This document shows positions 5,838-43,500 of a stretch of 44,555 nt of DNA, in pieces (position 1 is the first letter of the stretch; every line of letters begins with the position of its first letter). The DNA lies in IMG/VR virus record IMGVR_UViG_2684622774_000013; one strand, written 5' to 3'. The stretch is from a virus (lineage: Duplodnaviria > Heunggongvirae > Uroviricota > Caudoviricetes). Below the pieces are notes generated by a model, which saw nothing but the letters and a program-made list of their open reading frames with translations, was not told the DNA's origin and did not search any database. The translations under genes were made by a program, and so were the position numbers.

Positions 5838-6008
5838 TTAAAGTTCATGTGCCATCTGGTCTTTTTCGGCACAAGCTTCACTGCAATATTTTCTCGGTTC
5901 GTCTTTTGATAAAATCCCGTGCATGAAGTGAAGCATTCTTTCAATAGCTTTGCTTTCTTCAACGTCTTTTTTGCAAAGGTGGTAAGCACATTTTATTTTC
6001 TTAGTCAT
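5838..6008 (-). CDS. ydaE: Small Cys-rich protein YdaE (56 aa)
   Basis: Hand-translated; under the track cutoff. [56 protein letters not shown]. Its start codon overlaps the kilR stop (TGATG). Confidence 0.75.
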   Translation of the reverse strand: MTKKIKCAYHLCKKDVEESKAIERMLHFMHGILSKDEPRKYCSEACAEKDQMAHEL

Positions 6009-6229
6009 CACCATGACTCCGCCTTTACAGGTAAACCATCACGACCGAGGAAGACTTTAATCATGCGGTCAGTAATGCATGTTTTTGTGGTCAGGTTACG
6101 AATATATAGTTTTCGCTTTTTAATATTGTTTGCCGAGGCAATATATGTCCGGCCTTCATGAAGAACATAATCGCCAGGAGTCACACACTGACGTGGTATT
6201 TCATCAGTTCCGAAGTGATGTGCAATCAT
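6008..6229 (-). CDS. kilR: Cell-division inhibitor KilR (73 aa)
   Basis: [46 protein letters not shown]... is recognisable as Rac KilR. ATG is the fifth codon of the track ORF. Confidence 0.9.
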
Positions 6230-6410
6230 AATTATCTCCATTTTTACAAATGAACTTTGTTGATGCGGTGCCTGGTGCCTCCAGGTGACTGCAACCAGTT
6301 AACAATTACAGTCGGCTTTCCCACCCAAACCAATAAGGACTAACATGACTTTTAACTGTGCCACGTGCGCTTAGCCGCATTCACCGCATCACAAAATTCA
6401 CTTTAAAAAG

Positions 6411-6452
6411 GGCGGACATCAGCCGAACTTCAAGAAAAAAACTGATGCCGCC
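6411..6452 (-). terminator. Candidate leftward intrinsic terminator or attenuator upstream of kilR
   Basis: Inverted repeat GGCGGACATCAG / CTGATGCCGCC (one bulge) with a 19-nt loop. On the minus strand the hairpin is followed by CTTTTTAAAG. Confidence 0.3.
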
Positions 6453-6670
6453 AGGACTACACACAGCAATGTCGTTATTTACAACCGGAGGCGCACTCCC
6501 ACCATTTAAATTTAACAGACAAGACCGACTCTTTATGGATATCGGAAATGCGCCTTCGTGTTGTGCCCGGTTTTATTTCACCACCTCCGGGCTTCGGTGG
6601 TCTCGGCTATACCCCTACAGCGAGAGCTTGTGTTAACATTTCAATACCCTTACAGTTGAGAGTTATTGAT

Positions 6671-7159
6671 ATGTTGGATGTATTTACTCCATTGTTGAAA
6701 CTTTTTGCTAACGAGCCACTCGAAATACTTATGTATACGATTATCATTTTTGGTCTCACTCTCTGGCTGATACCGAAAGAGTTTACTGTCGCATTCAATG
6801 CTTATACTGAAATACCTTGGCTCTTTCAGATTATCGTTTTTGCCTTTTCTTTCGTGGTCGCCATTTCCTTCTCAAGATTGCGAGCACATATTCAAAAGCA
6901 TTATTCATTACTACCAGAGCAACGAGTATTGCTTCGTTTATCTGAGAAAGAAATCGCTGTATTTAAAGATTTCCTTAAAACAGGAAATCTTATTATCACT
7001 TCTCCTTGCCGTAACCCGGTTATGAAAAAATTAGAACGGAAGGGCATCATTCAACATCAGAGTGATAGCGCAAACTGTTCTTATTATCTCGTCACCGAAA
7101 AATACTCCCATTTTATGAAGTTATTCTGGAACAGCAGGAGTAGACGTTTTAATCGTTAG
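6671..7159 (+). CDS. sieB: Superinfection exclusion protein B (162 aa, membrane protein)
   Basis: MLDVFTPLLKLFANEPLEILMYTIIIFGLTLWLIPKEF... has hydrophobic N-terminal segments and is recognisable as SieB. ATG at 6671 lies inside a longer track ORF. Confidence 0.85.
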   Translation: MLDVFTPLLKLFANEPLEILMYTIIIFGLTLWLIPKEFTVAFNAYTEIPWLFQIIVFAFSFVVAISFSRLRAHIQKHYSLLPEQRVLLRLSEKEIAVFKDFLKTGNLIITSPCRNPVMKKLERKGIIQHQSDSANCSYYLVTEKYSHFMKLFWNSRSRRFNR

Positions 7160-8931: not shown

Positions 8932-9789
8932 ATGCTGTTTGTGCTTATTCTAAGCCACCGGGCAGCATCATACGGGGCAATTATGGCCGCATTACCATAC
9001 ATGCAACTGTACATAGCTGATTACCTGGCTGACACCATGCATTTGTCAGCAGAGGAGCATGGTGCGTATTTGTTGCTGATGTTCAATTACTGGCAAACAG
9101 GAAAGCCAATACCTAAAAACAGGCTGGCAAAAATTGCCCGTCTGACTAACGAGCGATGGGCTGATGTTGAACCATCCTTGCAGGAGTTTTTTTGCGATAA
9201 CGGCGAGGAATGGGTGCATCTTCGGATTGAGGAAGATCTGGCATCAGTCAGGGAAAAATTAACCAAAAAATCAGCCGCAGGAAAAGCATCTGTTCAGGCC
9301 AGAAGAAGCAGAAAGGAAGCAGATGTTCAAACAAAACAAGAGAGAAATTTAACAGGTGTTCAAACAGATGTTGAAGTGGTGTTTGAACATGATGTCAACA
9401 CAAAGGCAACTAATAAAGATACAGATAAAGATCTAAAAACAGATCCCCCCCTAAATCCCCCCCGGGGGAATCGAGGTGTCAAAAAGTTTGACCCTCTGGA
9501 TATTGCTTTGCCGAACTGGATTTCTGTCTCGCTTTGGCGTGAGTGGGTTGAATTTCGCCAGGCATTGCGAAAACCGATTCGAACGGAGCAGGGCGCTAAC
9601 GGGGCGATACGGGAGCTGGAAAAATTCCGCCAGCAGGGTTTTTCACCTGAGCAGGTGATTCGACACAGCATCGCCAATGAATACCAGGGCTTGTTCGCGC
9701 CGAAAGGTGTTCGACCTGAGACGTTACTCCGACAGGTTAACACCGTCTCGTTACCGGATAGTGCGATCCCGCCAGGCTTCAGGGGGTAA
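8932..9789 (+). CDS. ydaU: Replication-associated protein YdaU (DUF1376 family), 285 aa, or 268 aa from ATG 8983
   Basis: Track ORF; ...MAALPYMQLYIADYLADTMHLSAEEHGAYLLLMFNYWQTGKPIP... Precedes a DnaC-like gene. Confidence 0.75.
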   Translation: MLFVLILSHRAASYGAIMAALPYMQLYIADYLADTMHLSAEEHGAYLLLMFNYWQTGKPIPKNRLAKIARLTNERWADVEPSLQEFFCDNGEEWVHLRIEEDLASVREKLTKKSAAGKASVQARRSRKEADVQTKQERNLTGVQTDVEVVFEHDVNTKATNKDTDKDLKTDPPLNPPRGNRGVKKFDPLDIALPNWISVSLWREWVEFRQALRKPIRTEQGANGAIRELEKFRQQGFSPEQVIRHSIANEYQGLFAPKGVRPETLLRQVNTVSLPDSAIPPGFRG

Positions 9790-9795
9790 CTGACC

Positions 9796-10228
9796 ATGAA
9801 AAATATTGCGACAGGCGACGTTCTTGAACGTATCCGCAGACTGGCCCCGTCACATGTAACCGCGCCATTCAAGACGGTAGCGGAGTGGCGCGAGTGGCAA
9901 CTTTCCGAAGGCCAGAAACGTTGTGAGGAGATCAACCGTCAGAATCGTCAGTTGCGGGTGGAAAAAATTCTGAATCGCTCTGGCATCCAGCCATTGCACC
10001 GCAAATGCTCGTTTTCGAATTACCAGGTGCAGAACGAAGCGCAGCGATACGCGTTGAGTCAGGCGAAATCCATCGCTGATGAACTGATGACCGGGTGTAC
10101 AAATTTTGCGTTCAGCGGAAAACCTGGTACCGGGAAGAACCACTTAGCGGCAGCTATCGGGAATCGCCTGCTGAAAGACGGTCAGACAGTGATTGTGGTT
10201 ACCGTGGCTGATGTTATGAGTGCCCTGC
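9796..10228 (+). CDS. ydaV: DnaC/IstB-like replication ATPase (helicase loader), 3-prime end lost in N-masked block
   Basis: Walker A motif FSGKPGTGKNHLAAAIG. ORF runs into the N-run at 10229-10530, so it is partial. Confidence 0.75.
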
Positions 10229-10554
10229 NNNNNNNNNNNNNNNNNNNNNNNNNNNNNNNNNNNNNNNNNNNNNNNNNNNNNNNNNNNNNNNNNNNNNNNN
10301 NNNNNNNNNNNNNNNNNNNNNNNNNNNNNNNNNNNNNNNNNNNNNNNNNNNNNNNNNNNNNNNNNNNNNNNNNNNNNNNNNNNNNNNNNNNNNNNNNNNN
10401 NNNNNNNNNNNNNNNNNNNNNNNNNNNNNNNNNNNNNNNNNNNNNNNNNNNNNNNNNNNNNNNNNNNNNNNNNNNNNNNNNNNNNNNNNNNNNNNNNNNN
10501 NNNNNNNNNNNNNNNNNNNNNNNNNNNNNNAATTTTTACCGGGAGGAAATTTTT

Positions 10555-11316
10555 ATGGAGACTGTTTTTGACGCACTGAAAGCAATGGGAAAAGCCACAT
10601 CCATAGAACTTGCTGCGCGACTTGATATCAGTCGTGAAGAAGTGCTGAACGAACTATGGGAACTGAAAAAAGCTGGTTTCGTTGATAAAAGCGCGTACAC
10701 CTGGCGTGTGGCTGATAACAACGTTCAGCAGGAACAGCCAATGCAGGCAGAACTGCCGGAAGAAACCACCACGGCAACTGTAGTGAAAATCTCAGAGTGC
10801 GATTTAACCGCGACGATTGAACAACGCGGACCACAAACGGCGGATGAACTGGCTACGCTGTTCGGTACAACATCCCGCAAAGTTGCTTCAACGCTGGCAA
10901 TGGCAATCAGCAAAGGACGCCTGATTCGCGTAAACCAGAACAGTAAATTTCGTTACTGCATGCCGGGCGATAATTTACCAGCAGAGCCGAAAGCTGCATC
11001 GGTAGCGGAAACTGATGGTAAAGCCTTTCCTCAGCCAGCCGGTGTTGCGTTACCAGTACAGGAAGCGGCAACACAGGAAGATATTAAAACAGAAACTGTG
11101 GCGGACATTGTGCAGTCGCTGCCATCGTTTACTGAAACGCAAGCGGATGACCTAGTTTTACCATCGCTGCATATGGCAAACCGCGAACTGCGTCGGGCGA
11201 AAAATCATGTCCAGAAGTGGGAGCGAGTCTGCGCCGCGCTGCGGGAGCTGAACAAGCACCGGGATATTGTCCGACAGATTGTCGATTCCTCCAGTCGTAT
11301 TGTGTCGGAAAAGTGA
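10555..11316 (+). CDS. ydaW: Phage protein with winged-helix N-terminus (253 aa), YdaW-like
   Basis: ATG at 10555 preceded by [53 protein letters not shown]... The track fuses it to ydaV through the N-run. Confidence 0.7.
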
Positions 11317-11331
11317 TTGCCGGAGGCGCTT

Positions 11332-11748
11332 ATGGCAAAAGTTTTTACACAGGAAGAGCGTGAAAAAATTAAGGAGCAGGTTGTTGAGTTGGTACGCCAG
11401 AGTGGGCGCGAGACGTTAAGGCAACTGGAGGCCAAGACAGGTGCGACAAGATATCTGATGAGCATTCTTGCCAGAGAGTTGGTTGCCAGTGGCGATGTAT
11501 ACAACTCTGGCTATGGGTTATTCCCGTCTGAACAGGCTCGTAAGGATTGGAAAAACGCCCGCAAAAAACTATCCAGGGCAAAGGTGAAAAAAACGGTTGT
11601 GGTTGATCCTGACCTTATCTGGTCATTACCAGACGGAGAAATACGCCGCTATGACAGGCGTCAGAACATAATCTGTCGCGAGTGCCGGAAGAGTGAAGTT
11701 ATGAAACGTGTACTGGCATTTTATCAAGGAAATCTTCGGTATTTATAG
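11332..11748 (+). CDS. Hypothetical protein (138 aa)
   Basis: ATG at 11332 with GGAGG SD at 11322-11326. MAKVFTQEEREKIKEQVVELVRQSGRETLRQLEAKTGATRYLM...; function not recognised. Confidence 0.6.
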   Translation: MAKVFTQEEREKIKEQVVELVRQSGRETLRQLEAKTGATRYLMSILARELVASGDVYNSGYGLFPSEQARKDWKNARKKLSRAKVKKTVVVDPDLIWSLPDGEIRRYDRRQNIICRECRKSEVMKRVLAFYQGNLRYL

Positions 11749-11886
11749 ACGTTACTAGATCAAAGAGCATTAGTTCATATGTAAATTGACATTTTTCTGG
11801 CACAGGGGAGAGCTAGCGTGGTTGTCCGCTTTGTGCCAATAGCGGACATTGCTGGCTCATGGTATGTTAGTTTAAGGAGGCAGGTT

Positions 11887-12909
11887 ATGCCCTGTATTTC
11901 GCTGTGGTATAATAGTTGCGCAATTGATACAAGGGAGCGTTACATCGTGAAAATTGTTTTCGAGGTTAATGGAAAGAAAGTTCCACTAAAATCTTTAAAA
12001 TACATAAGCAAAAAAGATCAACTCGAAGTAATGAAAAACTGGTTCTTTGAAAACTTTGAAGATCCGGCAAATGCTTGTCCGTATGAAAGTAGAGAAGGTG
12101 GCTATGCTTACATATATGGCGGGCCGTATGATGCGAGCGAAGAACTACAATCCATCTTCGGTCAATATGTTAAATCTGAGTATATTGAGGAATTAGTAGA
12201 TGAATTACAAACACAATGTTTTGACTGGTCTGGAAACTCAAATAATATAGATGATTGGTACGATGATGATATCTACGACGCTGTAACGTCTTCCGGTAAT
12301 CCGTATTTAAAATTCATTGATAATATCGATAAAATAAAAAAACTTGCAAAAGATAAAACTGAACAACAGCAAAAAAACCACTTGCTTAGTTTGCTCTACA
12401 CGAATGTTATTACAGCTTTGGAAACGCTTTATGTTGAGCTATTCATTAATTCTATAGAGAAAGATGATGTCTACATAGCCAATTGTATAGAAAAAGGTAA
12501 GACTGAATTTAAAGTAAGCAAAGATATTGCTGCGTTGCCTTTCAAGGGTGAACCCATCGAGAAAATTAGGGGAGAGCTAATCAGGTCAATCAAGGAACAC
12601 TTGATCAGTGCAAGCTGGCATAGCACTAAAAAGGTAATCGACCGCTATGAAGCTACATTCGATATAAAAGTACAAAAAGACTGTCCGATAGAAGCTATTG
12701 AATTGGCAACCCTCAATCGAAATCACTTAGTGCATCGTGGTGGAAAGGATAAAGAAGGGAACCTCGTAGTGATTACAGACCAGGATCTTGAAACGCTGAT
12801 TGAAAATGCATCGAACCTGGCAATTATGCTCTACAACAGTTTAAATGTAGCAACGAATAAAACCACCATTTTGCAACCAGATGACAAACCGTTCATTCAT
12901 GAATTTTAA
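11887..12909 (+). CDS. Hypothetical protein (340 aa) with C-terminal R-x4-H motif, possible HEPN-like domain; first gene of AT-rich cassette
   Basis: ATG at 11887 with AGGAGG at 11875-11880. Alternative GTG start at 11947 preceded by TGgTATAAT (11905-11913) and GGGAG. Motif LNRNHLVHRGG near the C-terminus; coding sequence visibly AT-rich compared with flanks. Confidence 0.65.
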   Translation: MPCISLWYNSCAIDTRERYIVKIVFEVNGKKVPLKSLKYISKKDQLEVMKNWFFENFEDPANACPYESREGGYAYIYGGPYDASEELQSIFGQYVKSEYIEELVDELQTQCFDWSGNSNNIDDWYDDDIYDAVTSSGNPYLKFIDNIDKIKKLAKDKTEQQQKNHLLSLLYTNVITALETLYVELFINSIEKDDVYIANCIEKGKTEFKVSKDIAALPFKGEPIEKIRGELIRSIKEHLISASWHSTKKVIDRYEATFDIKVQKDCPIEAIELATLNRNHLVHRGGKDKEGNLVVITDQDLETLIENASNLAIMLYNSLNVATNKTTILQPDDKPFIHEF

Positions 12910-12924
12910 TAGCGCAGGTCATAC

Positions 12925-13926
12925 ATGGATATTCGCACACGAAAGACAAAATTTTTAGAGTCGTTAGATTCAACTGAAGTGATACGCAAAGCAGTAAGTC
13001 TCGCTATAGATTGCATTATTGATAATCATAATAGTAATGAAGATACCCCCTTAGTTATTACCAGCTATGATGATCTCTGTAGAATCCAGGTGCTAAATTA
13101 TGTACAGGAGTTTTGCGAAGCTGCATTCCCTGATATGGATGAATATTACTTTAGTCCTAACATACTTCGCATCAACGGCAAGACTAGTGAAGAAGCTTGT
13201 ATTAACTTAATTAAACTCTTAAGAAGTACAAAAGGCATGCTATTCTGGTCCGATGCCCCATCGTGGTTCGCTAGCCTCCCCGACGGATTATTCCATGTTG
13301 TTAACATTGATCAAAAAATCGTTACTCGCGGCCTTAATAAGAAAAACTCTAAGCCGACAATAATCAATAAAGATTACAGTGTAGATACACTACTATCAGA
13401 GCTATTTTTGAATGGCGCACACATGGAGCAACCCAACGTACACAACGTTTCTGAGGGAAACATGAAGTTCTATGATGAATGCCATGCTGGATTAATCAGA
13501 CCAATACCCGCTCCAATAGGCGCGTCATACGATGAAGAGATCACAATTAATTCTCCAGATTGGCAAAAGCTCGCGTGTGTAGCTTTACGCCGCTATCAGT
13601 CGAAGGAATGTCATGACGGAATGCAATGGGATACAACCGATCATGGTTGGACTGATGTAATCGCGTATCCATTCGTCGAAGAAATACAATCAATGGATAA
13701 TAGTGGTTATCGACAATGTTTAGTTGGGCTGGTCACAATAAACAATTCAAATGCAAATTCTCCGTACCTATCTACCGTTTGGATACATCCATTTTATCGC
13801 AGGAGAGGGTTATTAAGTAAGTTATGGCCAAAATTACAAGAGTTATATGGAAGTAACTTCGAAATTGAGCGACCTAATGAAAATATGAAAGCATTTCTGA
13901 AAAGTGCGAAACACGCAGATTACTAA
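12925..13926 (+). CDS. Hypothetical protein (333 aa) with GNAT-like C-terminal domain (motif A-like FYRRRGLLSKLW); second gene of cassette
   Basis: ATG 15 bp after the upstream stop, same strand, AT-rich. The C-terminal 130 aa show a GNAT-like pattern (VGLVTI..., RRRGLLSKL, NENMKAFLKS). N-terminal 200 aa not recognised. Confidence 0.7.
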   Translation: MDIRTRKTKFLESLDSTEVIRKAVSLAIDCIIDNHNSNEDTPLVITSYDDLCRIQVLNYVQEFCEAAFPDMDEYYFSPNILRINGKTSEEACINLIKLLRSTKGMLFWSDAPSWFASLPDGLFHVVNIDQKIVTRGLNKKNSKPTIINKDYSVDTLLSELFLNGAHMEQPNVHNVSEGNMKFYDECHAGLIRPIPAPIGASYDEEITINSPDWQKLACVALRRYQSKECHDGMQWDTTDHGWTDVIAYPFVEEIQSMDNSGYRQCLVGLVTINNSNANSPYLSTVWIHPFYRRRGLLSKLWPKLQELYGSNFEIERPNENMKAFLKSAKHADY

Positions 13927-14103
13927 TTTATGAATCAGTCTGTGGAGTTAGGGTTGGTGTGAACAAGTAGGGTAAGAGCCTCAACGTGATGCTATGCCGA
14001 CCTGCTCCCTGAGAATTCACACAGAAGGCTGCTAGCAATGTCTGCAGATCGCTCAAAGCGGACTAAAATGTTGGCTTGTTTCTGACTTAGAGCATTTAAG
14101 GAA

Positions 14104-14328
14104 GTGCTGGTGGTGACTGGTTGTTGTGTTCCATTTCTACAGAATAAAATCACAGAAACTATACCCAATAGTTGTATTGAATCACTGACGAGACAGCCTC
14201 ATATTTATCAGGACTGGTGTGCGTCTAATACAGGGGGTTGTCGTGCTGGTTCTCAAATGTGCGCTGGCTATTGCGGCTGTAATGGCAATTTATTGTCTTG
14301 CTGTTGTTCTTATGGAGCGGCTTTCTGA
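14104..14328 (+). CDS. Possible small Cys-rich peptide (about 71-74 aa, 12 Cys); coding status uncertain
   Basis: GTG-initiated ORF with AAGGAAG immediately upstream. C-terminal CRAGSQMCAGYCGCNGNLLSCCCSYGAAF. No recognisable family. Confidence 0.25.
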   Translation: MLVVTGCCVPFLQNKITETIPNSCIESLTRQPHIYQDWCASNTGGCRAGSQMCAGYCGCNGNLLSCCCSYGAAF

Positions 14329-14480
14329 TTGATTACATACTGGCTAGAAAAAAGGTGTTACCTTGGTTTATCTTTGTCCGGCAAGGTGCGCTCATTAATC
14401 TTAAGTAAATTTATTGCTCAAGTATTCAGATTACTTCTTATGGTTGAAGTCTCCTGTCAATGTAGAACCAATATATTTAC

Positions 14481-14517
14481 AAAAATGAGACCCGTCGGGG
14501 ATAGCCCTGCCGGGTCT
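14481..14517 (-). terminator. Candidate intrinsic terminator of the yeaR-like gene
   Basis: Inverted repeat AGACCCG / CGGGTCT (14488-14494 and 14511-14517) followed on the minus strand by a T-run (plus 14481-14485 AAAAA), about 30 nt downstream of the stop. Confidence 0.4.
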
Positions 14518-14546
14518 GACTGTTAAAGCATTTTTAATATGATCAT

Positions 14547-14885
14547 CTATTTTTTGGTGCTATAGACTTTTTCGCCCGAAAAGTCTGGAGCGACCCAAAA
14601 GTTAATATTAAACTGAGCATCATCGCTTAGTTCAACACGGTGCCAGTATTGTGGTGGGCTTGTTGCAAAAGCGCCAGCATTAATGACTACTTTTATCTCC
14701 GGTTCAGTAGCATTCTCATCAGTAAAACCATAATATGTTACAGTGCCTTCCATTACGCACAACTGCCCAAAAACACCTGCTGCTGTATTATGATGTGTTA
14801 ATAACGCTGAAGGTACGTTCTCTTTTGTGAAGAACGGAGTTGAGCGTTTGATTACCCAATCTTTAGGAATTCTCTTGTGTGTCAT
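14547..14885 (-). CDS. DUF1971 (YeaR-like, TehB-related cupin) protein, 112 aa
   Basis: MTHKRIPKDWVIKRSTPFFTKENVPSALLTHHNTAAGVFGQLCVMEGTVTYYGFTDENATEPE... resembles E. coli YeaR. ATG at 14885 with GGAGGAGG SD. Confidence 0.8.
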   Translation of the reverse strand: MTHKRIPKDWVIKRSTPFFTKENVPSALLTHHNTAAGVFGQLCVMEGTVTYYGFTDENATEPEIKVVINAGAFATSPPQYWHRVELSDDAQFNINFWVAPDFSGEKVYSTKK

Positions 14886-14893
14886 AACCACCT

Positions 14894-14930
14894 CCTCCAA
14901 AACATGCATTAAAAATGCATCTTTTGGAGG
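14894..14930. promoter_or_regulatory. 37-bp near-perfect palindrome with NsrR-box-like core (AACATGCATTAAAAATGCATCTT) upstream of the yeaR-like gene, overlapping its SD
   Basis: CCTCCAAAACATGCATT-A-AAAATGCATCTTTTGGAGG has one mismatch between arms. The core matches the 11-1-11 NsrR motif as remembered. The left arm overlaps the GGAGG SD, so the mRNA could fold into a 16-bp hairpin. Confidence 0.45.
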
Positions 14931-15698
14931 GTTATGTCAAGCTGTTATGAAACACATAATTGATATGTTGATTAGAGGAGAAGATAGAATAAATATGGTT
15001 GTTTTTCGTATAACTATTTGTTTTACTTTTAGTTTATGCATTCTGTGTGTTAGGAATAAGTTATTAAAGTTTAATCAAAAAATCTCGATGTAGTCCACAT
15101 AGATTACTGTTACTGAACCTTATTGTGTGTATTAGTTGTGTTCTGAAATTTCAGCTTAATTATTTATGATGTATTTTTTAACGATAAATATTTTCCCAGG
15201 ATACCTTTACTGTGTATATAAATAAATTATATACGCATAAATAATGTAAAGGCGTCCTTTTAGATATATCTTATCAAATGTTAATGACTTGAGTGGGAAA
15301 TATGATTCCAGCAACTTATCATGTGGCTACTTTATAAAAATAATGCCCATATAAAACAACAAGCGAAAAGGATTACGGATAAAAAAGGAGCGAGATGTGC
15401 GAACTTGTTATTTTCCATGTTTAACCACCTTAAATAATTGATGATGACGGGATGATTGCATCTGTAATGCTTTTATTGAAATGTTATGATAAAAAAGAAC
15501 TTTTGCATAACATTAAAATGTAATTTATCTAATCGTTTTTAATAATAAGTGTCGTATTTCTATCCTTGTACCAGCTATTTGATATGTAGTGTTTGTTCAT
15601 GCTATGTGGGGCTTTACACCATAGCCAGTTTATTTATACTTTATTCGTCAGCCTGAACAACTGGCATCTGCTGCGCTGCGCCATCGAGAGATTGAGAA

Positions 15699-16298
15699 AT
15701 GGCGCATATACAACTGGTCAAACAAACCTCTTCTGGTTTACTTCTCCCGGCGACGCCGGAGAGTTGCGATTTTCTGCATCAAATCAAAATAGGTGAGTGG
15801 ATACACGCAGACTTTAAGCGTGTGCGTAACTACGCATTCCACAAGCGTTTTTTCAAACTCCTGCAACTGGGATTCGATTACTGGACTCCGGTCGGTGGGG
15901 CGATCACGCCTCGCGAACGAGAACTGCTGTCTGGTTTCGTTGATTACCTGTGCGAATCAGTTGGTCGGGAACACACGCCAGCCCTGAGTGATGCCGCAGA
16001 GCAATACCTTAACACCGTTGCGACTCGTAGAACCCGGGATACGGCGTTGCTAAAGTCGTTTGAGGCTTTCCGCGAGTGGGTAACCATTCAGGCCGGATTT
16101 TACACCGAGCATATTTATCCGGACGGTAGCCGTGGGCGTCGGGCAAAATCCATCGCTTTTGCGAATATGGACGAAGTCGAGTTTCAGCAGGTTTATAAAT
16201 CTGTACTGAATGTGCTGTGGAACTGGATTCTGTTCCGTAAATTCTCCTCTCAGGAGGAAGTTGAAAATGTGGCCGCACAACTACTGGAGTTTGCGTAA
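15699..16298 (+). CDS. Phage nin-region protein (199 aa), DUF1367-like
   Basis: ATG at 15699. MAHIQLVKQTSSGLLLPATPESCDFLHQIKIGEWIHADFKRVRNYAFHKRFFKLL... Precedes ybcO-like and Q-like genes. Confidence 0.75.
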   Translation: MAHIQLVKQTSSGLLLPATPESCDFLHQIKIGEWIHADFKRVRNYAFHKRFFKLLQLGFDYWTPVGGAITPRERELLSGFVDYLCESVGREHTPALSDAAEQYLNTVATRRTRDTALLKSFEAFREWVTIQAGFYTEHIYPDGSRGRRAKSIAFANMDEVEFQQVYKSVLNVLWNWILFRKFSSQEEVENVAAQLLEFA

Positions 16299-18600: not shown

Positions 18601-18750
18601 TATTTATTGTTTTGTAATAAACGGTTTCGGCTTAGGTTTGTTCTGACACAGCTACGGCACTGAGCTAAATTTAGCGGATAGTCAGCTCTGAGCCAGTGGC
18701 GGACGTAACAACTACTATTGCTGAGATTTTAATGGATTGAGGAGCAAGAA

Positions 18751-19792: not shown

Positions 19793-20101
19793 NNNNNNNN
19801 NNNNNNNNNNNNNNNNNNNNNNNNNNNNNNNNNNNNNNNNNNNNNNNNNNNNNNNNNNNNNNNNNNNNNNNNNNNNNNNNNNNNNNNNNNNNNNNNNNNN
19901 NNNNNNNNNNNNNNNNNNNNNNNNNNNNNNNNNNNNNNNNNNNNNNNNNNNNNNNNNNNNNNNNNNNNNNNNNNNNNNNNNNNNNNNNNNNNNNNNNNNN
20001 NNNNNNNNNNNNNNNNNNNNNNNNNNNNNNNNNNNNNNNNNNNNNNNNNNNNNNNNNNNNNNNNNNNNNNNNNNNNNNNNNNNNNNNNNNNNNNNNNNNN
20101 N

Positions 20102-40513: not shown

Positions 40514-43500
40514 ATGGAGCNNNNNNNNNNNNNNNNNNNNNNNNNNNNNNNNNNNNNNNNNNNNNNNNNNNNNNNNNNNNNNNNNNNNNNNNNNNNNNNN
40601 NNNNNNNNNNNNNNNNNNNNNNNNNNNNNNNNNNNNNNNNNNNNNNNNNNNNNNNNNNNNNNNNNNNNNNNNNNNNNNNNNNNNNNNACCAACATCTCCG
40701 GCGTCACGGTGGTGTTCCGGGCAGGTGAGCAGGAGCAGTCACCGCCGGAGGGGTTTGAATCCTCCGGCTCCGAGACGGTGCTGGGTACGGAAGTGAAATA
40801 TGACACGCCGATCACCCGGACCATCACGTCGGCAAACATCGACCGTCTGCGCTTTACCTTCGGTGTACAGGCACTGGTGGAAACCACCTCAAAGGGAGAC
40901 AGGAATCCGTCGGAAGTCCGCCTGCTGGTTCAGATACAGCGTAACGGTGGCTGGGTGACGGAAAAAGACATCACCATTAAGGGCAAAACCACCTCGCAGT
41001 ATCTGGCCTCGGTGGTGGTGGATAACCTGCCGCCGCGCCCGTTTAATATCCGGATGCGCAGAATGACGCCGGACAGCACCACAGACCAGCTGCAGAACAA
41101 AACGCTCTGGTCGTCATACACCGAAATCATCGATGTGAAACAGTGCTACCCGAACACGGCACTGGTCGGCGTGCAGGTGGACTCGGAGCAGTTCGGCAGC
41201 CAGCAGGTGAGCCGTAATTATCATCTTCGCGGGCGCATTCTGCAGGTGCCGTCGAACTATAATCCGCAGACGCGGCAATACAGCGGTATCTGGGACGGAA
41301 CGTTAAAACCGGCATACAGCAACAACATGGCCTGGTGTCTGTGGGATATGCTGACCCATCCGCGCTATGGCATGGGGAAACGTCTTGGTGCGGCAGATGT
41401 GGATAAATGGGCGCTGTATGTCATCGGCCAGTACTGTGACCAGTCGGNNNNNNNNNNNNNNNNNNNNNNNNNNNNNNNNNNNNNNNNNNNNNNNNNNNNN
41501 NNNNNNNNNNNNNNNNNNNNNNNNNNNNNNNNNNNNNNNNNNNNNNNNNNNNNNNNNNNNNNNNNNNNNNNNNNNNNNNNNNNNNNNNNNNNNNNNNNNN
41601 NNNNNNNNNNNNNNNNNNNNNNNNNNNNNNNNNNNNNNNNNNNNNNNNNNNNNNNNNNNNNNNNNNNNNNNNNNNNNNNNNNNNNNNNNNNNNNNNNNNN
41701 NNNNNNNNNNNNNNNNNNNNNNNNNNNNNNNNNNNNNNNNNTTGACCCGGATAACGGCTGGGAGACGGCGACAGAGCTTGTGGAGGATACGCAGGCCATT
41801 GTCCGTTACGGTCGTAACGTCACGAAGATGGATGCCTTTGGCTGTACCAGCCGGGGGCAGGCACACCGCGCCGGGCTGTGGCTGATTAAAACGGAACTGC
41901 TGGAGACGCAGACCGTGGATTTCAGCGTGGGTGCTGAAGGGCTTCGCCATGTACCGGGCGATGTCATTGAAATCTGCGATGATGACTATGCCGGTATCCG
42001 CACCGGCGGGCGCGTGCTGGCGGTGAACAGCCAGACCCGGACGCTGACGCTCGACCGTGAAATCACGCTGCCATCCTCCGGCACCACGCTGATAAGCCTG
42101 GTTGACGGGCAGGGGAATCCGGTCAGCGTGGAGGTCCAGTCCGTCACCGACGGCGTGAAGGTAAAAGTGAGCCGTGTTCCTGACGGTGTTGCTGAATACA
42201 GCGTGTGGGGGCTGAAGCTGCCGACGCTGCACCAGCGATTGTTCCGCTGCGTGAGTANNNNNNNNNNNNNNNNNNNNNNNNNNNNNNNNNNNNNNNNNNN
42301 NNNNNNNNNNNNNNNNNNNNNNNNNNNNNNNNNNNNNNNNNNNNNNNNNNNNNNNNNNNNNNNNNNNNNNNNNNNNNNNNNNNNNNNNNNNNNNNNNNNN
42401 NNNNNNNNNNNNNNNNNNNNNNNNNNNNNNNNNNNNNNNNNNNNNNNNNNNNNNNNNNNNNNNNNNNNNNNNNNNNNNNNNNNNNNNNNNNNNNNNNNNN
42501 NNNNNNNNNNNNNNNNNNNNNNNNNNNNNNNNNNNNNNNNNNNNNNNNNNNNNNNNNNNNNNNNNNNNNNGCTGACAGTCCGGGCAGTAAATGCGTGGGG
42601 GCAGCAGGGCGATCCGGCGTCGGTATCGTTCCGGATTGCCGCACCGGCAGCGCTGTCGCGGATTGAGCTGACGCCGGGCTATTTTCAGATAACCGCCACG
42701 CCGCATCTTGCGGTTTATGATCCGACGGTACAGTTTGAGTTCTGGTTCTCGGAAAAGCGGATTGCGGATATCAGGCAGGTTGAAACCACAGCACGCTATC
42801 TTGGCACGGCGCTGTACTGGATAGCCGCCAGTATCAATATCAAACCGGGCCATGATTATTACTTTTATATCCGCAGTGTGAACACCGTTGGCAAATCGGC
42901 ATTCGTGGAGGCTGTTGGTCAGCCGAGTGATGATGCATCCGGTTATCTGGATTTTTTCAAAGGCGAGATAGGGAAAACCCATCTGGCTCAGGAGCTGTGG
43001 ACGCAGATTGATAACGGTCAGCTTGCGCCTGACCTGGCTGAAATCAGGACGTCCATTACGGATGTCAGCAATGAAATCACGCAGACCGTCAATAAGAAAC
43101 TGGAAGACCAGAGTGCGGCAATTCAGCAGATACAGAAGGTTCAGGTTGATACAAATAATAACCTGAACAGCATGTGGGCTGTGAAGCTGCAGCAGATGCA
43201 GGACGGACGCCTTTATATCGCGGGTATTGGTGCCGGTATTGAGAACACCCCTGACGGCATGCAGAGTCAGGTGCTGCTGGCGGCGGACAGGATTGCGATG
43301 GTTAATCCTGCGAATGGCAACACAAAACCGATGTTTGTTGGTCAGGGCGATCAGATATTCATGAACGACGTGTTCCTGAAACGCCTGACGGCCCCCACCA
43401 TTACCAGCGGTGGAAATCCATCGGCATTTTCCCTGACTCCGGACGGAAAGCTGACCGCTAAAAATGCGGATATCAGTGGCAGTGTGAATGCGAACGCCGG

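What the first reader, a model, noticed from the sequence alone, without database searches (positions are those of the whole stretch)
11760..13926. AT-rich two-gene cassette (R-x4-H protein plus GNAT-domain protein) between replication and nin modules: candidate undescribed defence or toxin-antitoxin system
Two co-directional genes (11887-12909 and 12925-13926) lie 15 bp apart and are markedly more AT-rich than the flanking phage genes, indicating a horizontally acquired moron in a classic lambdoid cargo hotspot. Protein 1 ends with LNRNHLVHRGG, fitting the HEPN R-x4-6-H nuclease signature; protein 2 carries a C-terminal GNAT-like domain (motif A-like FYRRRGLLSKLW) after an unrecognised 200-aa region. 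I cannot place either protein in a named family. The cassette has its own upstream signals (extended -10 TGgTATAAT at 11905-11913 and a hairpin at 11823-11848).
Basis: partly seen in the sequence, partly recalled or inferred. Interest (0 to 1): 0.8.

Follow-up and report, generated by a model that had tools for sequence, protein, structure and literature searches.

The report
Prophage HEPN–GNAT defence cassette DS-33
This AT-rich two-gene insert in a lambda-like E. coli prophage is the anti-phage system published in 2026 as DS-33: its first gene, an RNA-cutting HEPN enzyme, does the protecting, its acetyltransferase-like second gene has no known role, and the whole unit is one of many cargo cassettes bounded by the same pair of hairpin repeats.

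Summary
Two co-directional genes 15 nt apart have 36-39% GC against 46-49% in the flanks. Gene 1 carries an invariant R-x4-H motif and gene 2 a C-terminal GNAT fold. Gene 1 most likely starts at GTG 11947, not ATG 11887.

It is not undescribed. Gene 1 is identical to WP_014639476.1. Gene 2 differs by one residue from WP_000354965.1. That pair was cloned and validated as defence system DS-33 (DefensePredictor, Science 2026, PMC13092281). In the paper's plaque data the HEPN gene and its Arg258 are required against T7, T3, Bas67 and Bas26. Removing the GNAT leaves defence intact.

My comparative data agree. Both families also occur alone, so this is not a toxin-antitoxin pair. GNAT-only deletion derivatives of the cassette persist intact in three contexts. 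The published construct carries Leu at Pro289, which is invariant in every homologue I examined. The GNAT's role is therefore still open.

One result goes beyond the finding. The unit is exactly 11824-14063, bounded by 24-nt hairpin-forming inverted repeats. At least 25 size classes of cargo share these ends, including PD-T7-1, DarT, AbiH-like and TIR proteins. They form arrays joined by a regular 66-nt junction. That junction occurs in 39% of complete E. coli genomes and 507 plasmids. I found no description of it.

The parts
11824..11856 (+). Left terminal inverted repeat of the cassette. The core is a 24-nt hairpin, GTCCGCTTTGTGCCAATAGCGGAC (11824-11847).
   Evidence: Homology to the window starts exactly here in Serratia, in metagenome contigs and in the GNAT-only derivatives. 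The same motif opens at least 25 other cassette size classes. It folds at -9.3 kcal/mol, z -3.5. No match to the motif appeared in 100 shuffles of the window.
11905..11913 (+). Extended -10 element TGGTATAAT, a candidate cassette promoter.
Evidence: It lies 34 nt upstream of the GTG start. It is retained in the GNAT-only deletion derivatives, whose homology runs to about 11919-11923. It is not statistically unusual on its own, and no -35 element passed the scan. Its function is inferred.
11931..11937 (+). Shine-Dalgarno-like AAGGGAG, 9 nt before GTG 11947.
   Evidence: Read directly from the sequence.
11947..12909 (+). Gene 1 = DS-33A, 320 aa. It has an N-terminal HEPN_RES_NTD1-like domain (about residues 1-115) and a C-terminal RiboL-PSP-type HEPN domain (about residues 120-308).
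12718..12738 (+). Codons for R258-N-H-L-V-H263-R264, the HEPN R-x4-H catalytic motif.
   Evidence: R258, H263 and R264 are invariant in 52 sequences. The published R258A mutant loses defence against T7, T3, Bas67 and Bas26 in two replicates.
12925..13926 (+). Gene 2 = DS-33B, 333 aa. It has a family-specific N-terminal alpha/beta domain (about residues 1-195) and a C-terminal GNAT fold (about residues 196-333).
13786..13818 (+). Codons for H288-P289-F-Y-R292-R-R-G295-L-L-S298, the GNAT motif A region at the beta4-alpha3 junction.
   Evidence: H288, P289 and R292 are invariant; G295 is not. Pro289 is present in all 76 loci examined. The allele tested in the paper has Leu289.
14031..14063 (+). 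Right terminal inverted repeat. The core is 14040-14063, GTCTGCAGATCGCTCAAAGCGGAC. In this copy the hairpin is degenerate.
   Evidence: Homology in other contexts ends at 14063-14065. It is the reverse complement of the left repeat with 7 of 33 mismatches. The same CGCTCAnAGCGGAC end closes the other cassettes. In this window it does not fold into the hairpin, whereas the L134 copy does.

Best explanation
The cassette is the anti-phage defence operon DS-33, carried as cargo by a Rac-like lambdoid prophage.

Effector. Gene 1 (DS-33A) is the effector. It is a HEPN ribonuclease of the RiboL-PSP type whose active site needs Arg258 of the R-x4-H motif. Its N-terminal HEPN_RES_NTD1 domain probably keeps it silent until infection.

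Proposed mechanism. When a susceptible phage infects, the N-terminal domain senses a phage product or a change in the cell. The HEPN domains then form a composite active site, as HEPN dimers generally do. They cut cellular and/or phage RNA. Translation stops and the phage fails to produce progeny, either by abortive infection or by growth arrest.

Gene 2 (DS-33B). It is co-transcribed. It is a GNAT-fold protein with a private N-terminal domain. It is not needed for this defence and is not an antitoxin. I consider it most likely a separately acting accessory: a second, independent activity that travels with the HEPN gene.

What is shown. Protein identity with DS-33; defence; the requirement for the HEPN gene and R258; dispensability of the GNAT in those assays; the two folds.

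What is inferred. RNase activity and its target; sensing by the N-terminal domain; abortive outcome; any activity of the GNAT protein.
For: Identity. DS-33A in Table S8 of PMC13092281 is identical to the window protein. DS-33B is identical at 332 of 333 residues.

Published plaque assays (Table S7, two replicates; values are log10 reduction in plating).
- Wild type: T7 3.8/2.6, T3 3.3/2.4, Bas67 4.0/2.0, Bas26 5.0/5.9.
- HEPN deletion: about 0 on all phages.
- R258A: 0.8 or less on all phages.
- GNAT deletion: T7 4.8/4.3, T3 3.3/3.3, Bas67 4.0/3.3, Bas26 5.0/4.9.
The system was cloned with its native promoter on a low-copy plasmid in MG1655.

The HEPN protein is autonomous.
- A homologue at 76% identity stands alone between housekeeping genes in Aeromonas.
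- One at 75% sits in what looks like a P2-like prophage variable region in Yersinia.
- Distant ones sit beside an integrase or beside Druantia genes.
- None of 78 more distant loci holds a gene 2 homologue.

The N-terminal domain is modular. The same domain is fused to PIN domains in P0117. It also occurs alone in matches from alphaproteobacterial loci.
Against: No biochemical evidence exists for RNase activity, for the target or for the trigger. No abortive-infection assay for DS-33 was found in the paper. The window protein itself does not reach the Pfam gathering score for either HEPN-related family. PADLOC models, including PD-T4-2 and ApeA, do not match it.

The pair co-diverges with fixed spacing: protein 1 from 100% down to 85% identity, protein 2 from 100% down to 73%. 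That argues for some functional coupling, which the 'independent accessory' reading does not explain.

The GNAT-deletion result was obtained with a Leu289 allele at an otherwise invariant proline. It may therefore under-report what the intact GNAT does.
Confidence: 0.8

Rival explanations
1. DS-33B is an independent second function, for example a defence with a different phage range that acetylates an aminoacyl-tRNA or a phage protein. It merely shares the cassette and promoter with DS-33A. This rival concerns only the role of gene 2 and is compatible with the best explanation.
For: GNAT-only derivatives of the same cassette lack window positions 11920-12847. They keep the promoter region and an intact 333-codon ORF at 86% identity. 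They occur in three different contexts: L109, L110 next to a P4-type primase, and L131 next to what read as recombinase and methylase-like ORFs (unscanned).

Homologues at 33-56% identity are always without protein 1. They lie near Abi_2 (L005, on record, weak), and near ORFs that read as HigBA-like, an ATPase and an integrase (unscanned).

Thirty-three columns are invariant across 44 sequences, which indicates purifying selection.
Against: The HEPN-deletion construct, which keeps the GNAT gene, gave no protection against five phages. That construct carried the Leu289 allele and was tested on a small panel.

Motif A is incomplete. The final G/A is replaced by Leu, and G295 is not conserved.

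DefensePredictor gave the protein a log-odds of only 1.08, against 9.45 for DS-33A.
Confidence: 0.45
2. DS-33B is a negative regulator of DS-33A, an antitoxin-like brake. It could act by acetylating or binding the HEPN protein, in analogy to MNT AMPylating HEPN in type VII toxin-antitoxin systems.
For: The genes are adjacent with a constant 14-15-nt spacing, and the pair co-diverges. In one or both replicates the GNAT-deletion strain defends 0.5-1.7 log10 better against T7, T5, T3 and Bas67.
Against: The HEPN-only construct was obtained and plated normally in MG1655. Close HEPN homologues (54-76% identity) live without any GNAT partner. GNAT-only cassettes persist. The paper's iPTM sheet, as far as it was read, lists no DS-33 A:B pair (passage truncated). 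The gain in defence is small, and Bas26 goes the other way in one replicate.
Confidence: 0.2
3. The pair is a classical toxin-antitoxin addiction module that stabilises the prophage. Defence would be a side effect.
For: HEPN and GNAT domains both occur as toxins in known toxin-antitoxin systems (HEPN-MNT; TacT/AtaT; established knowledge). hok and relBE-type modules lie in the same hotspots.
Against: Either gene can be deleted without loss of viability. Each family occurs alone. There is no MNT partner and no RHH/DUF1778 partner. Defence depends on the catalytic Arg.
Confidence: 0.05

Closest known systems
DS-33 (DefensePredictor discovered system 33; DeWeirdt et al., Science 2026, PMC13092281; working name 'GNAT')
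   Same: Same two proteins. DS-33A is identical. DS-33B is identical at 332 of 333 residues. Gene order is the same, and the source is an E. coli prophage.
   Different: The window encodes Pro289 in DS-33B, which is the consensus and is invariant in homologues. The published clone encodes Leu289.
PD-T4-2 (Vassallo et al. 2022): a DUF262 protein plus a RiboL-PSP-HEPN protein
   Same: Both use a PF18735-type HEPN domain as the presumed effector in an E. coli defence operon. The paper's remote-homology table links DS-33A to PD-T4-2_B at probability 96.1 over 55% of the protein.
   Different: The partner here is a GNAT-fold protein, not DUF262. DS-33A has a HEPN_RES_NTD1 N-terminal domain. The PADLOC PD-T4-2 models do not match it.
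Single-protein HEPN defences: ApeA, AbiJ-like proteins, and HepS of the Gifsy-1 prophage
   Different: There is no sequence-level relationship. The N-terminal domain differs. The trigger and the RNA target of DS-33A are unknown.
HEPN-MNT (type VII) toxin-antitoxin systems
   Same: The best structural matches of the HEPN domain include HepT toxins 8xdj, 5yep and 7ae2.
   Different: There is no MNT nucleotidyltransferase. The neighbour is dispensable and is not an antitoxin.
GNAT toxins (TacT, AtaT, ItaT, KacT) and GNAT enzymes in general
   Same: The C-terminal 110-140 residues adopt the GNAT fold. Invariant His-Pro and Arg sit at the beta4-alpha3 junction.
   Different: There is no RHH/DUF1778 antitoxin. 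A 195-residue private N-terminal domain is present. Motif A is incomplete. No activity has been shown. Foldseek's best whole-chain matches are HAT1, but with TM-scores of only 0.24-0.27.
Integron gene cassettes with attC sites, and lambdoid 'morons'
   Same: Promoter-bearing cargo units of 0.6-5.8 kb sit in tandem arrays. They are separated by a regular imperfect palindrome of about 66 nt and are enriched in defence genes.
   Different: The ends are GTCCGC...GCGGAC, not the RYYYAAC/GTTRRRY cores of attC (established knowledge of attC). Each cassette carries a repeat at both ends. No IntI-type integrase was seen beside the arrays I read through. They occur inside prophages, plasmids and islands rather than on an integron platform.

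Membership tests
DS-33 defence system (PMC13092281) | Same two proteins in the same order | tested here: met
   DS-33A is 320/320 identical and DS-33B 332/333 (P289 here, L289 in the paper) to the sequences printed in Table S8. The accessions match the RefSeq annotation of identical DNA.
HEPN superfamily (RiboL-PSP-HEPN, PF18735) | Four-helix up-and-down HEPN fold | tested here: met
HEPN superfamily (RiboL-PSP-HEPN, PF18735) | Conserved R-x4-6-H motif | tested here: met
   R258-NHLV-H263 is invariant in 52 homologues. The published R258A mutant abolishes defence.
HEPN superfamily (RiboL-PSP-HEPN, PF18735) | Profile match at Pfam's gathering score | tested here: inconclusive
   The window protein gives no PF18735 hit at E <= 1. 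27 of 52 aligned homologues match at E <= 0.01, best 7e-11.
HEPN superfamily | Metal-independent RNase activity | not testable with these tools
   Needs biochemistry. Only the genetic requirement for R258 is known.
HEPN_RES_NTD1 (PF18870) | Profile match at the gathering score over the N-terminal domain | tested here: inconclusive
   22.2 bits against a cut-off of 27.4, E 1.9e-4, residues 26-92. 48 of 52 homologues match at E <= 0.01.
GNAT acyltransferase superfamily | GNAT fold (mixed sheet with the beta4-alpha3-beta5 core) | tested here: met
GNAT acyltransferase superfamily | Motif A, Q/R-x-x-G-x-G/A, which binds the CoA pyrophosphate | tested here: not met
   The sequence is R292-R-R-G295-L-L297. 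The last G/A is Leu, and G295 varies to R, E, K or Q in homologues. R292, H288 and P289 are invariant.
GNAT acyltransferase superfamily | Pfam PF00583 at the gathering score | tested here: inconclusive
   19.9 bits against 20.7. 27 of 44 homologues match at E <= 0.1, best 6e-6.
GNAT acyltransferase superfamily | Acyl-CoA-dependent transfer activity | not testable with these tools
Toxin-antitoxin system (type II or type VII) | The toxin cannot be kept without its cognate antitoxin, and the pair is obligate | tested here: not met
   Each family occurs alone. The published single-gene deletions are viable. No MNT or RHH partner is present.
PD-T4-2 | DUF262 partner, and a match to the PD-T4-2 profiles | tested here: not met
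   No PADLOC hit to the PD-T4-2 models. The partner is a GNAT-fold protein.
Integron gene cassette | attC with RYYYAAC ... GTTRRRY core sites, and an IntI platform | tested here: not met
   The ends read GTCCGCT...AGCGGAC on both sides. No integron integrase appears in the arrays read through.

The most novel reading that the evidence does not exclude
The DS-33 cassette is one member of a large family of cargo cassettes in Enterobacterales that I could not find described.

Structure. Each unit of 0.6-5.8 kb starts with the hairpin repeat GTCCGCTTnGTGCCAnnAGCGGAC. It ends with that repeat's near reverse complement, TCCGCTnnTCGCTCAnAGCGGAC. Neighbouring units are joined by a regular 66-nt junction: right repeat, an 18-nt spacer, then left repeat.

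Distribution and cargo. The same cargo appears with exactly these limits in lambdoid prophages, in a locus beside a P4-type primase and in chromosomal islands; the junction element also occurs beside an e14-type integrase and on IncF plasmids. Much of the cargo is anti-phage defence.

Reading. The most novel interpretation is that these repeats are the substrate of a dedicated cassette-exchange mechanism. It could be site-specific or HUH-type recombination. It could instead be short-homology recombination by phage RecET or Red. Either would amount to an integron-like shuffling system for defence genes outside integrons.
Probability: 0.3. Interest if true: 0.8.

Novelty: already known. Interest (0 to 1): 0.35.

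Why it matters
For the finding itself there is little that is new.

Three things remain worth knowing.

1. The role of DS-33B is open. The only genetic test used an allele mutated at an invariant proline. GNAT-only cassettes are maintained in nature. Two cheap experiments follow from this: test the Pro289 allele, and test the GNAT gene alone on a wide phage panel.

2. DS-33A is a compact, single-gene HEPN defence with a modular N-terminal domain that is also fused to PIN domains (and, by the Pfam family's name, RES) effectors. Finding its trigger would inform a whole class of such proteins.

3. If the hairpin-bounded cassette architecture reflects a dedicated mobilisation mechanism, it would explain how defence genes hop between prophages, satellites, plasmids and islands in Enterobacterales. 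It would also give a simple sequence handle for mining new defence genes: take whatever lies between a left and a right repeat.

Tried and rejected
- Direct profile searches of both proteins gave only sub-threshold Pfam hits and PHROGs of unknown function (Pfam, PADLOC, PHROGs, NCBIfam). Sequence search of PDB chains gave nothing useful.
- The phage GenBank collection holds no copy of the cassette. Only the 90-nt left junction matches.
- Rfam found nothing credible in 11500-15700. The simple promoter and terminator scan was at background level and missed the extended -10 because the -35 is poor.
- The afdb50 fold library was not available. Foldseek against the PDB gave only low-TM whole-chain matches to HAT1, so the N-terminal domain of protein 2 stays unassigned. 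phmmer with that domain alone found no other architecture.
- I first thought the left hairpin belonged to the phage backbone, because cassette-less phages matched 11762-11851. I rejected this when those phages proved to carry different cargo between the same two repeats.
- I first read the gene 2 copies without gene 1 (86% identity) as evidence for independent origin. They are in fact deletion derivatives of the two-gene cassette.
- Searches for an empty site all failed. I tried a single hybrid hairpin between the lambdoid flanks, and the flanks joined directly.
- I looked for target-site duplications at 11 insertion contexts and saw none.
- I tested whether the repeat stems covary. Changes are mostly one-sided, so a hairpin requirement is not demonstrated.
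- Literature searches by accession, domain name, motif sequence and topic found the DefensePredictor paper but nothing on the repeats.
Full report
1. WHAT IS IN THE SEQUENCE

An ORF is open from 11818 to 12909 and a second runs 12925-13926. Both are on the + strand, with 15 nt between stop and start. GC content is 0.361 for gene 1 and 0.391 for gene 2. The replication genes to the left have 0.491, the nin-type genes to the right 0.464, and the window as a whole 0.465.

The extended -10 TGGTATAAT lies at 11905-11913. As a bare pattern it is at chance level in this window: 2 matches against 1.5 expected. The inverted repeat lies at 11823-11830 and 11841-11848. As single-stranded DNA it folds at -9.3 kcal/mol, z = -3.5.

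Gene 1 most likely starts at GTG 11947.
- NCBI's pipeline calls a 320-aa product on identical DNA.
- All enterobacterial and Aeromonas homologues begin MKIVF or MNIVF.
- AAGGGAG lies 9 nt upstream of that start.
- The -10 element would otherwise sit inside the gene.
- Some databases do use the ATG at 11887, giving a 340-aa form.

2. WHAT THE TWO PROTEINS ARE

Protein 1
- On its own it reaches only a sub-threshold match to PF18870, HEPN/RES N-terminal domain 1.
- Of 52 aligned homologues, 48 match PF18870 and 27 match PF18735, RiboL-PSP-HEPN.
- R258, H263 and R264 (the sequence R-NHLV-H-R) are invariant.

Protein 2
- It belongs to a narrow gammaproteobacterial family of 66 clusters.
- PF00583 scores just below threshold, 19.9 against 20.7 bits.
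- His288, Pro289 and Arg292 at the beta4-alpha3 junction are invariant. The canonical motif A is incomplete: it reads R-R-R-G-L-L, and the glycine is not conserved.
- The first ~195 residues form an alpha/beta domain. Searched alone against 1.84 billion representatives, it finds only 20 proteins, all full-length members or fragments of this same family.
- Foldseek gives only low-TM whole-chain matches to HAT1.

3. IT IS ALREADY DESCRIBED

A full-text search led to DefensePredictor (Science 2026, PMC13092281).
- Table S6 lists a transcription unit with working name 'GNAT', made of WP_014639476.1 plus WP_000354965.1 from an E. coli draft genome. It is marked defensive and named DS-33.
- WP_014639476.1 is the product annotated on DNA identical to the window.
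- The sequences printed in Table S8 match the window at 320/320 and 332/333 residues.
- Units were cloned with their native promoter on a low-copy plasmid in MG1655 and challenged with 24 phages.

Table S7 gives two replicates. Values are log10 reduction in plating.

| Construct | T7 | T3 | Bas67 | Bas26 |
|---|---|---|---|---|
| Wild type | 3.8 / 2.6 | 3.3 / 2.4 | 4.0 / 2.0 | 5.0 / 5.9 |
| HEPN deletion | about 0 | about 0 | about 0 | 0.5 / 0.3 |
| R258A | 0.8 / 0.5 | at most 0.3 | at most 0.5 | 0.7 / 0.4 |
| GNAT deletion | 4.8 / 4.3 | 3.3 / 3.3 | 4.0 / 3.3 | 5.0 / 4.9 |

T5 was barely affected in any construct.

The HEPN protein with its catalytic arginine is therefore necessary and, in these assays, sufficient. 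The GNAT protein is dispensable. The main text does not discuss DS-33 individually.

PADLOC 2.0 (2023) has no model for either protein. The paper's own remote-homology table links DS-33A to the HEPN subunit of PD-T4-2, whose partner is a DUF262 protein.

4. WHAT COMPARATIVE GENOMICS ADDS

Frequency. The full cassette is in 205 of 5,426 complete E. coli genomes. It sits in different lambdoid backgrounds, Rac-like and Qin-like, always after the DUF977 gene.

Pairing.
- Where protein 2 is at least 73% identical, protein 1 (at least 85% identical) lies immediately upstream with the same 14-15-nt spacing.
- The pair co-diverges. Examples of protein 1 / protein 2 identity are 85/78, 87/80 and 90/73.
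- Both families also exist alone. None of the loci holding protein 1 relatives at 76% identity or less has a protein 2 relative within 6 kb.
- Lone protein 1 examples: a single gene between housekeeping genes in Aeromonas taiwanensis; a variable region of what looks like a P2-like Yersinia prophage beside another R-x4-H protein (my reading of unscanned ORFs); loci beside an integrase or beside Druantia genes.
- All protein 2 relatives at 56% identity or less are alone. They lie in marine gammaproteobacteria near Abi_2 (on record, weak), and near ORFs I read as HigBA-like, an ATPase or an integrase (unscanned).

GNAT-only derivatives. Three loci carry protein 2 at 86% identity without protein 1. 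They are deletion derivatives of the two-gene cassette. Their DNA aligns to window 11824-11920, then jumps to about 12847-14000. The promoter region and an intact gene 2 are kept.

What this means. These facts exclude an obligate toxin-antitoxin relationship. They also show that the GNAT gene is maintained on its own.

A caveat on the published result. The clone encodes Leu at position 289. Pro289 is invariant in my 44-sequence alignment and in all 76 loci examined. The 'GNAT dispensable' and 'GNAT alone does nothing' results may reflect a crippled allele.

5. HOW IT MOST LIKELY WORKS

Shown: defence; the requirement for the HEPN gene and Arg258; the two folds.

Inferred from what is established for HEPN defence proteins:
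- DS-33A is an RNase held inactive until infection.
- The N-terminal domain acts as sensor or regulator. It is modular. The same domain is fused to PIN domains in one hit, and it matches alone in many alphaproteobacterial loci.
- Activation leads to RNA cleavage, translational arrest and failure of the phage.

For DS-33B I rank the readings as follows.
- Independent accessory function: 0.45.
- Weak negative regulator of DS-33A: 0.2. It is supported only by the 0.5-1.7 log gain in defence on deletion.
- Classical addiction module: 0.05.

6. THE CASSETTE HAS PRECISE, REPEATED ENDS (beyond the finding)

Limits of the unit. In every non-lambdoid context, homology to the window begins at 11824 and ends at 14063-14065.

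The two ends are imperfect inverted repeats.
- The left end is GTCCGCTTTGTGCCAATAGCGGAC, followed by ATTGCTGGC.
- The right end is GCTAGCAAT followed by GTCTGCAGATCGCTCAAAGCGGAC.
- Each core is a palindromic stem, GTCCGCT/AGCGGAC, around a 10-nt loop.
- The loops differ diagnostically between left (TGCC) and right (AGCG) ends.

Other cargo has the same ends. Phages Tritos and Evi matched only the left junction. They carry different cargo between the same two repeats at the same position.

Survey of viral contigs. In the 82 loci parsed (80 from the scan listing plus phages Tritos and Evi), the next right repeat delimits at least 25 size classes, from 589 to 5,827 nt.

Cargo. Of 20 cargo proteins scanned against PADLOC, 9 matched:
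- PD-T7-1 (E 4e-157)
- a ThsB-like TIR protein (9e-128)
- DarT
- AbiH
- candidate families PDC-S15, PDC-S33 and PDC-S39
- weaker AbiC-like and Aga-like hits
Other cassettes look metabolic or regulatory.

Arrays. Adjacent cassettes are joined by a regular junction. In 23 of 32 cases it is exactly right repeat, an 18-nt spacer similar to CTTCAGCTCAGTTACCTG, then left repeat, 66 nt in all. Arrays of three or four units occur.

Distribution of the 66-nt consensus.
- It matches 2,108 of 5,426 complete E. coli genomes, at 1-5 places each, all in unannotated intergenic DNA.
- It matches 507 plasmids of Klebsiella, Enterobacter, Pantoea, Escherichia and Citrobacter, 316 of them conjugative.
- Examples lie beside the e14-type integrase next to icd, and in what appears to be the leading region of an IncF plasmid, near hok, relBE and the tra genes.
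- In a metagenomic island the DS-33 cassette follows a pair I read as Gabija-like (unscanned ORFs), which ends in the same right-end motif and is preceded by another right repeat.

What I could not establish.
- I saw no target-site duplication.
- I found no empty site.
- No integron-type integrase lies beside the arrays I read through.
- Stem changes are mostly one-sided, so selection for the hairpin as such is not demonstrated.
- No paper in the library prints the motif or describes such ends. That is absence of evidence in an open-access library, not proof of novelty.

7. VERDICT

The system is already published and validated as DS-33, so the finding itself is 'already known' and of modest interest.

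Two things remain open. One is the role of the GNAT-fold protein, given the Leu289 caveat and the natural GNAT-only cassettes. The other is the mechanism behind the hairpin-bounded cassette family to which DS-33 belongs. The second is the more novel lead.

Noticed in passing
window 11824-11856 and 14031-14063; loci L162-L286: The cassette is bounded by about 33-nt inverted repeats with 24-nt hairpin cores. The same ends delimit at least 25 other cargo size classes, including PD-T7-1, DarT, AbiH-like, ThsB-like TIR, PDC-S15/S33/S39 and metabolic genes. These form arrays joined by a regular 66-nt junction. The junction occurs in 2,108 of 5,426 complete E. coli genomes and in 507 plasmids. No mobilising enzyme, empty site or target duplication was found.
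   Followed up: partly
L109:5817-7075, L110:5876-7183, L131:1422-2682: Natural GNAT-only derivatives of the cassette. Window positions 11920-12847, almost all of the HEPN gene, are deleted. The promoter region and an intact 333-codon gene 2 remain, in three different genomic contexts.
   Followed up: partly
window 13789-13791 (codon 289 of gene 2): The DS-33B allele tested in the DefensePredictor paper (WP_000354965.1) has Leu at Pro289. That residue is invariant in 44 aligned homologues and in all 76 loci examined. The published 'GNAT dispensable' result may come from a defective allele.
   Followed up: partly
window 18681-18704: A third copy of the end motif, GTCAGCTCTGAGCCAGTGGCGGAC, with 2 mismatches to the degenerate consensus. 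It is in left-end orientation and lies between two TolA-like genes upstream of the lysis genes. It is conserved in several related prophages (L001, L091, L096, L101). It may mark a second cargo site.
   Followed up: no
window 14064-15698: The stretch right of the cassette is also AT-rich (GC 0.357). It holds a DUF1971 gene on the minus strand (14547-14909). In the S88 prophage the same position holds hokD instead. This looks like further variable cargo without recognisable end repeats.
   Followed up: no
L013:4338-5699 (minus strand) and 6001-6945: In Yersinia alsatica a 75%-identical DS-33A homologue, without a GNAT partner, sits in what looks like a P2-like prophage variable region (ORFs read by eye, not scanned). 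Beside it is a 453-aa protein that also carries an R-x4-H motif (RNKIIH). It has no hairpin end repeats.
   Followed up: no
L134:321-3126; L128:529-4433 and 9047-12618: In metagenomic enterobacterial islands the DS-33 cassette lies next to what read as Gabija-like ATPase/helicase pairs and a dynamin-like GTPase pair (unscanned ORFs). The Gabija-like pair in L134 ends in the same right-end motif and is preceded by another right repeat.
   Followed up: partly
P0117; L067-L089: The HEPN_RES_NTD1-like N-terminal domain of DS-33A occurs with other C-terminal parts. P0117 has PIN domains (PF18476, PF16289). Many alphaproteobacterial loci match only residues 10-115. This suggests a portable sensor or regulator module.
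   Followed up: no
window 10229-10530, 19793-20101, 40521-40687, 41448-41741, 42258-42570: Five runs of N mask parts of the window. The first lies inside the DnaC-like replication gene just left of the finding.
   Followed up: no
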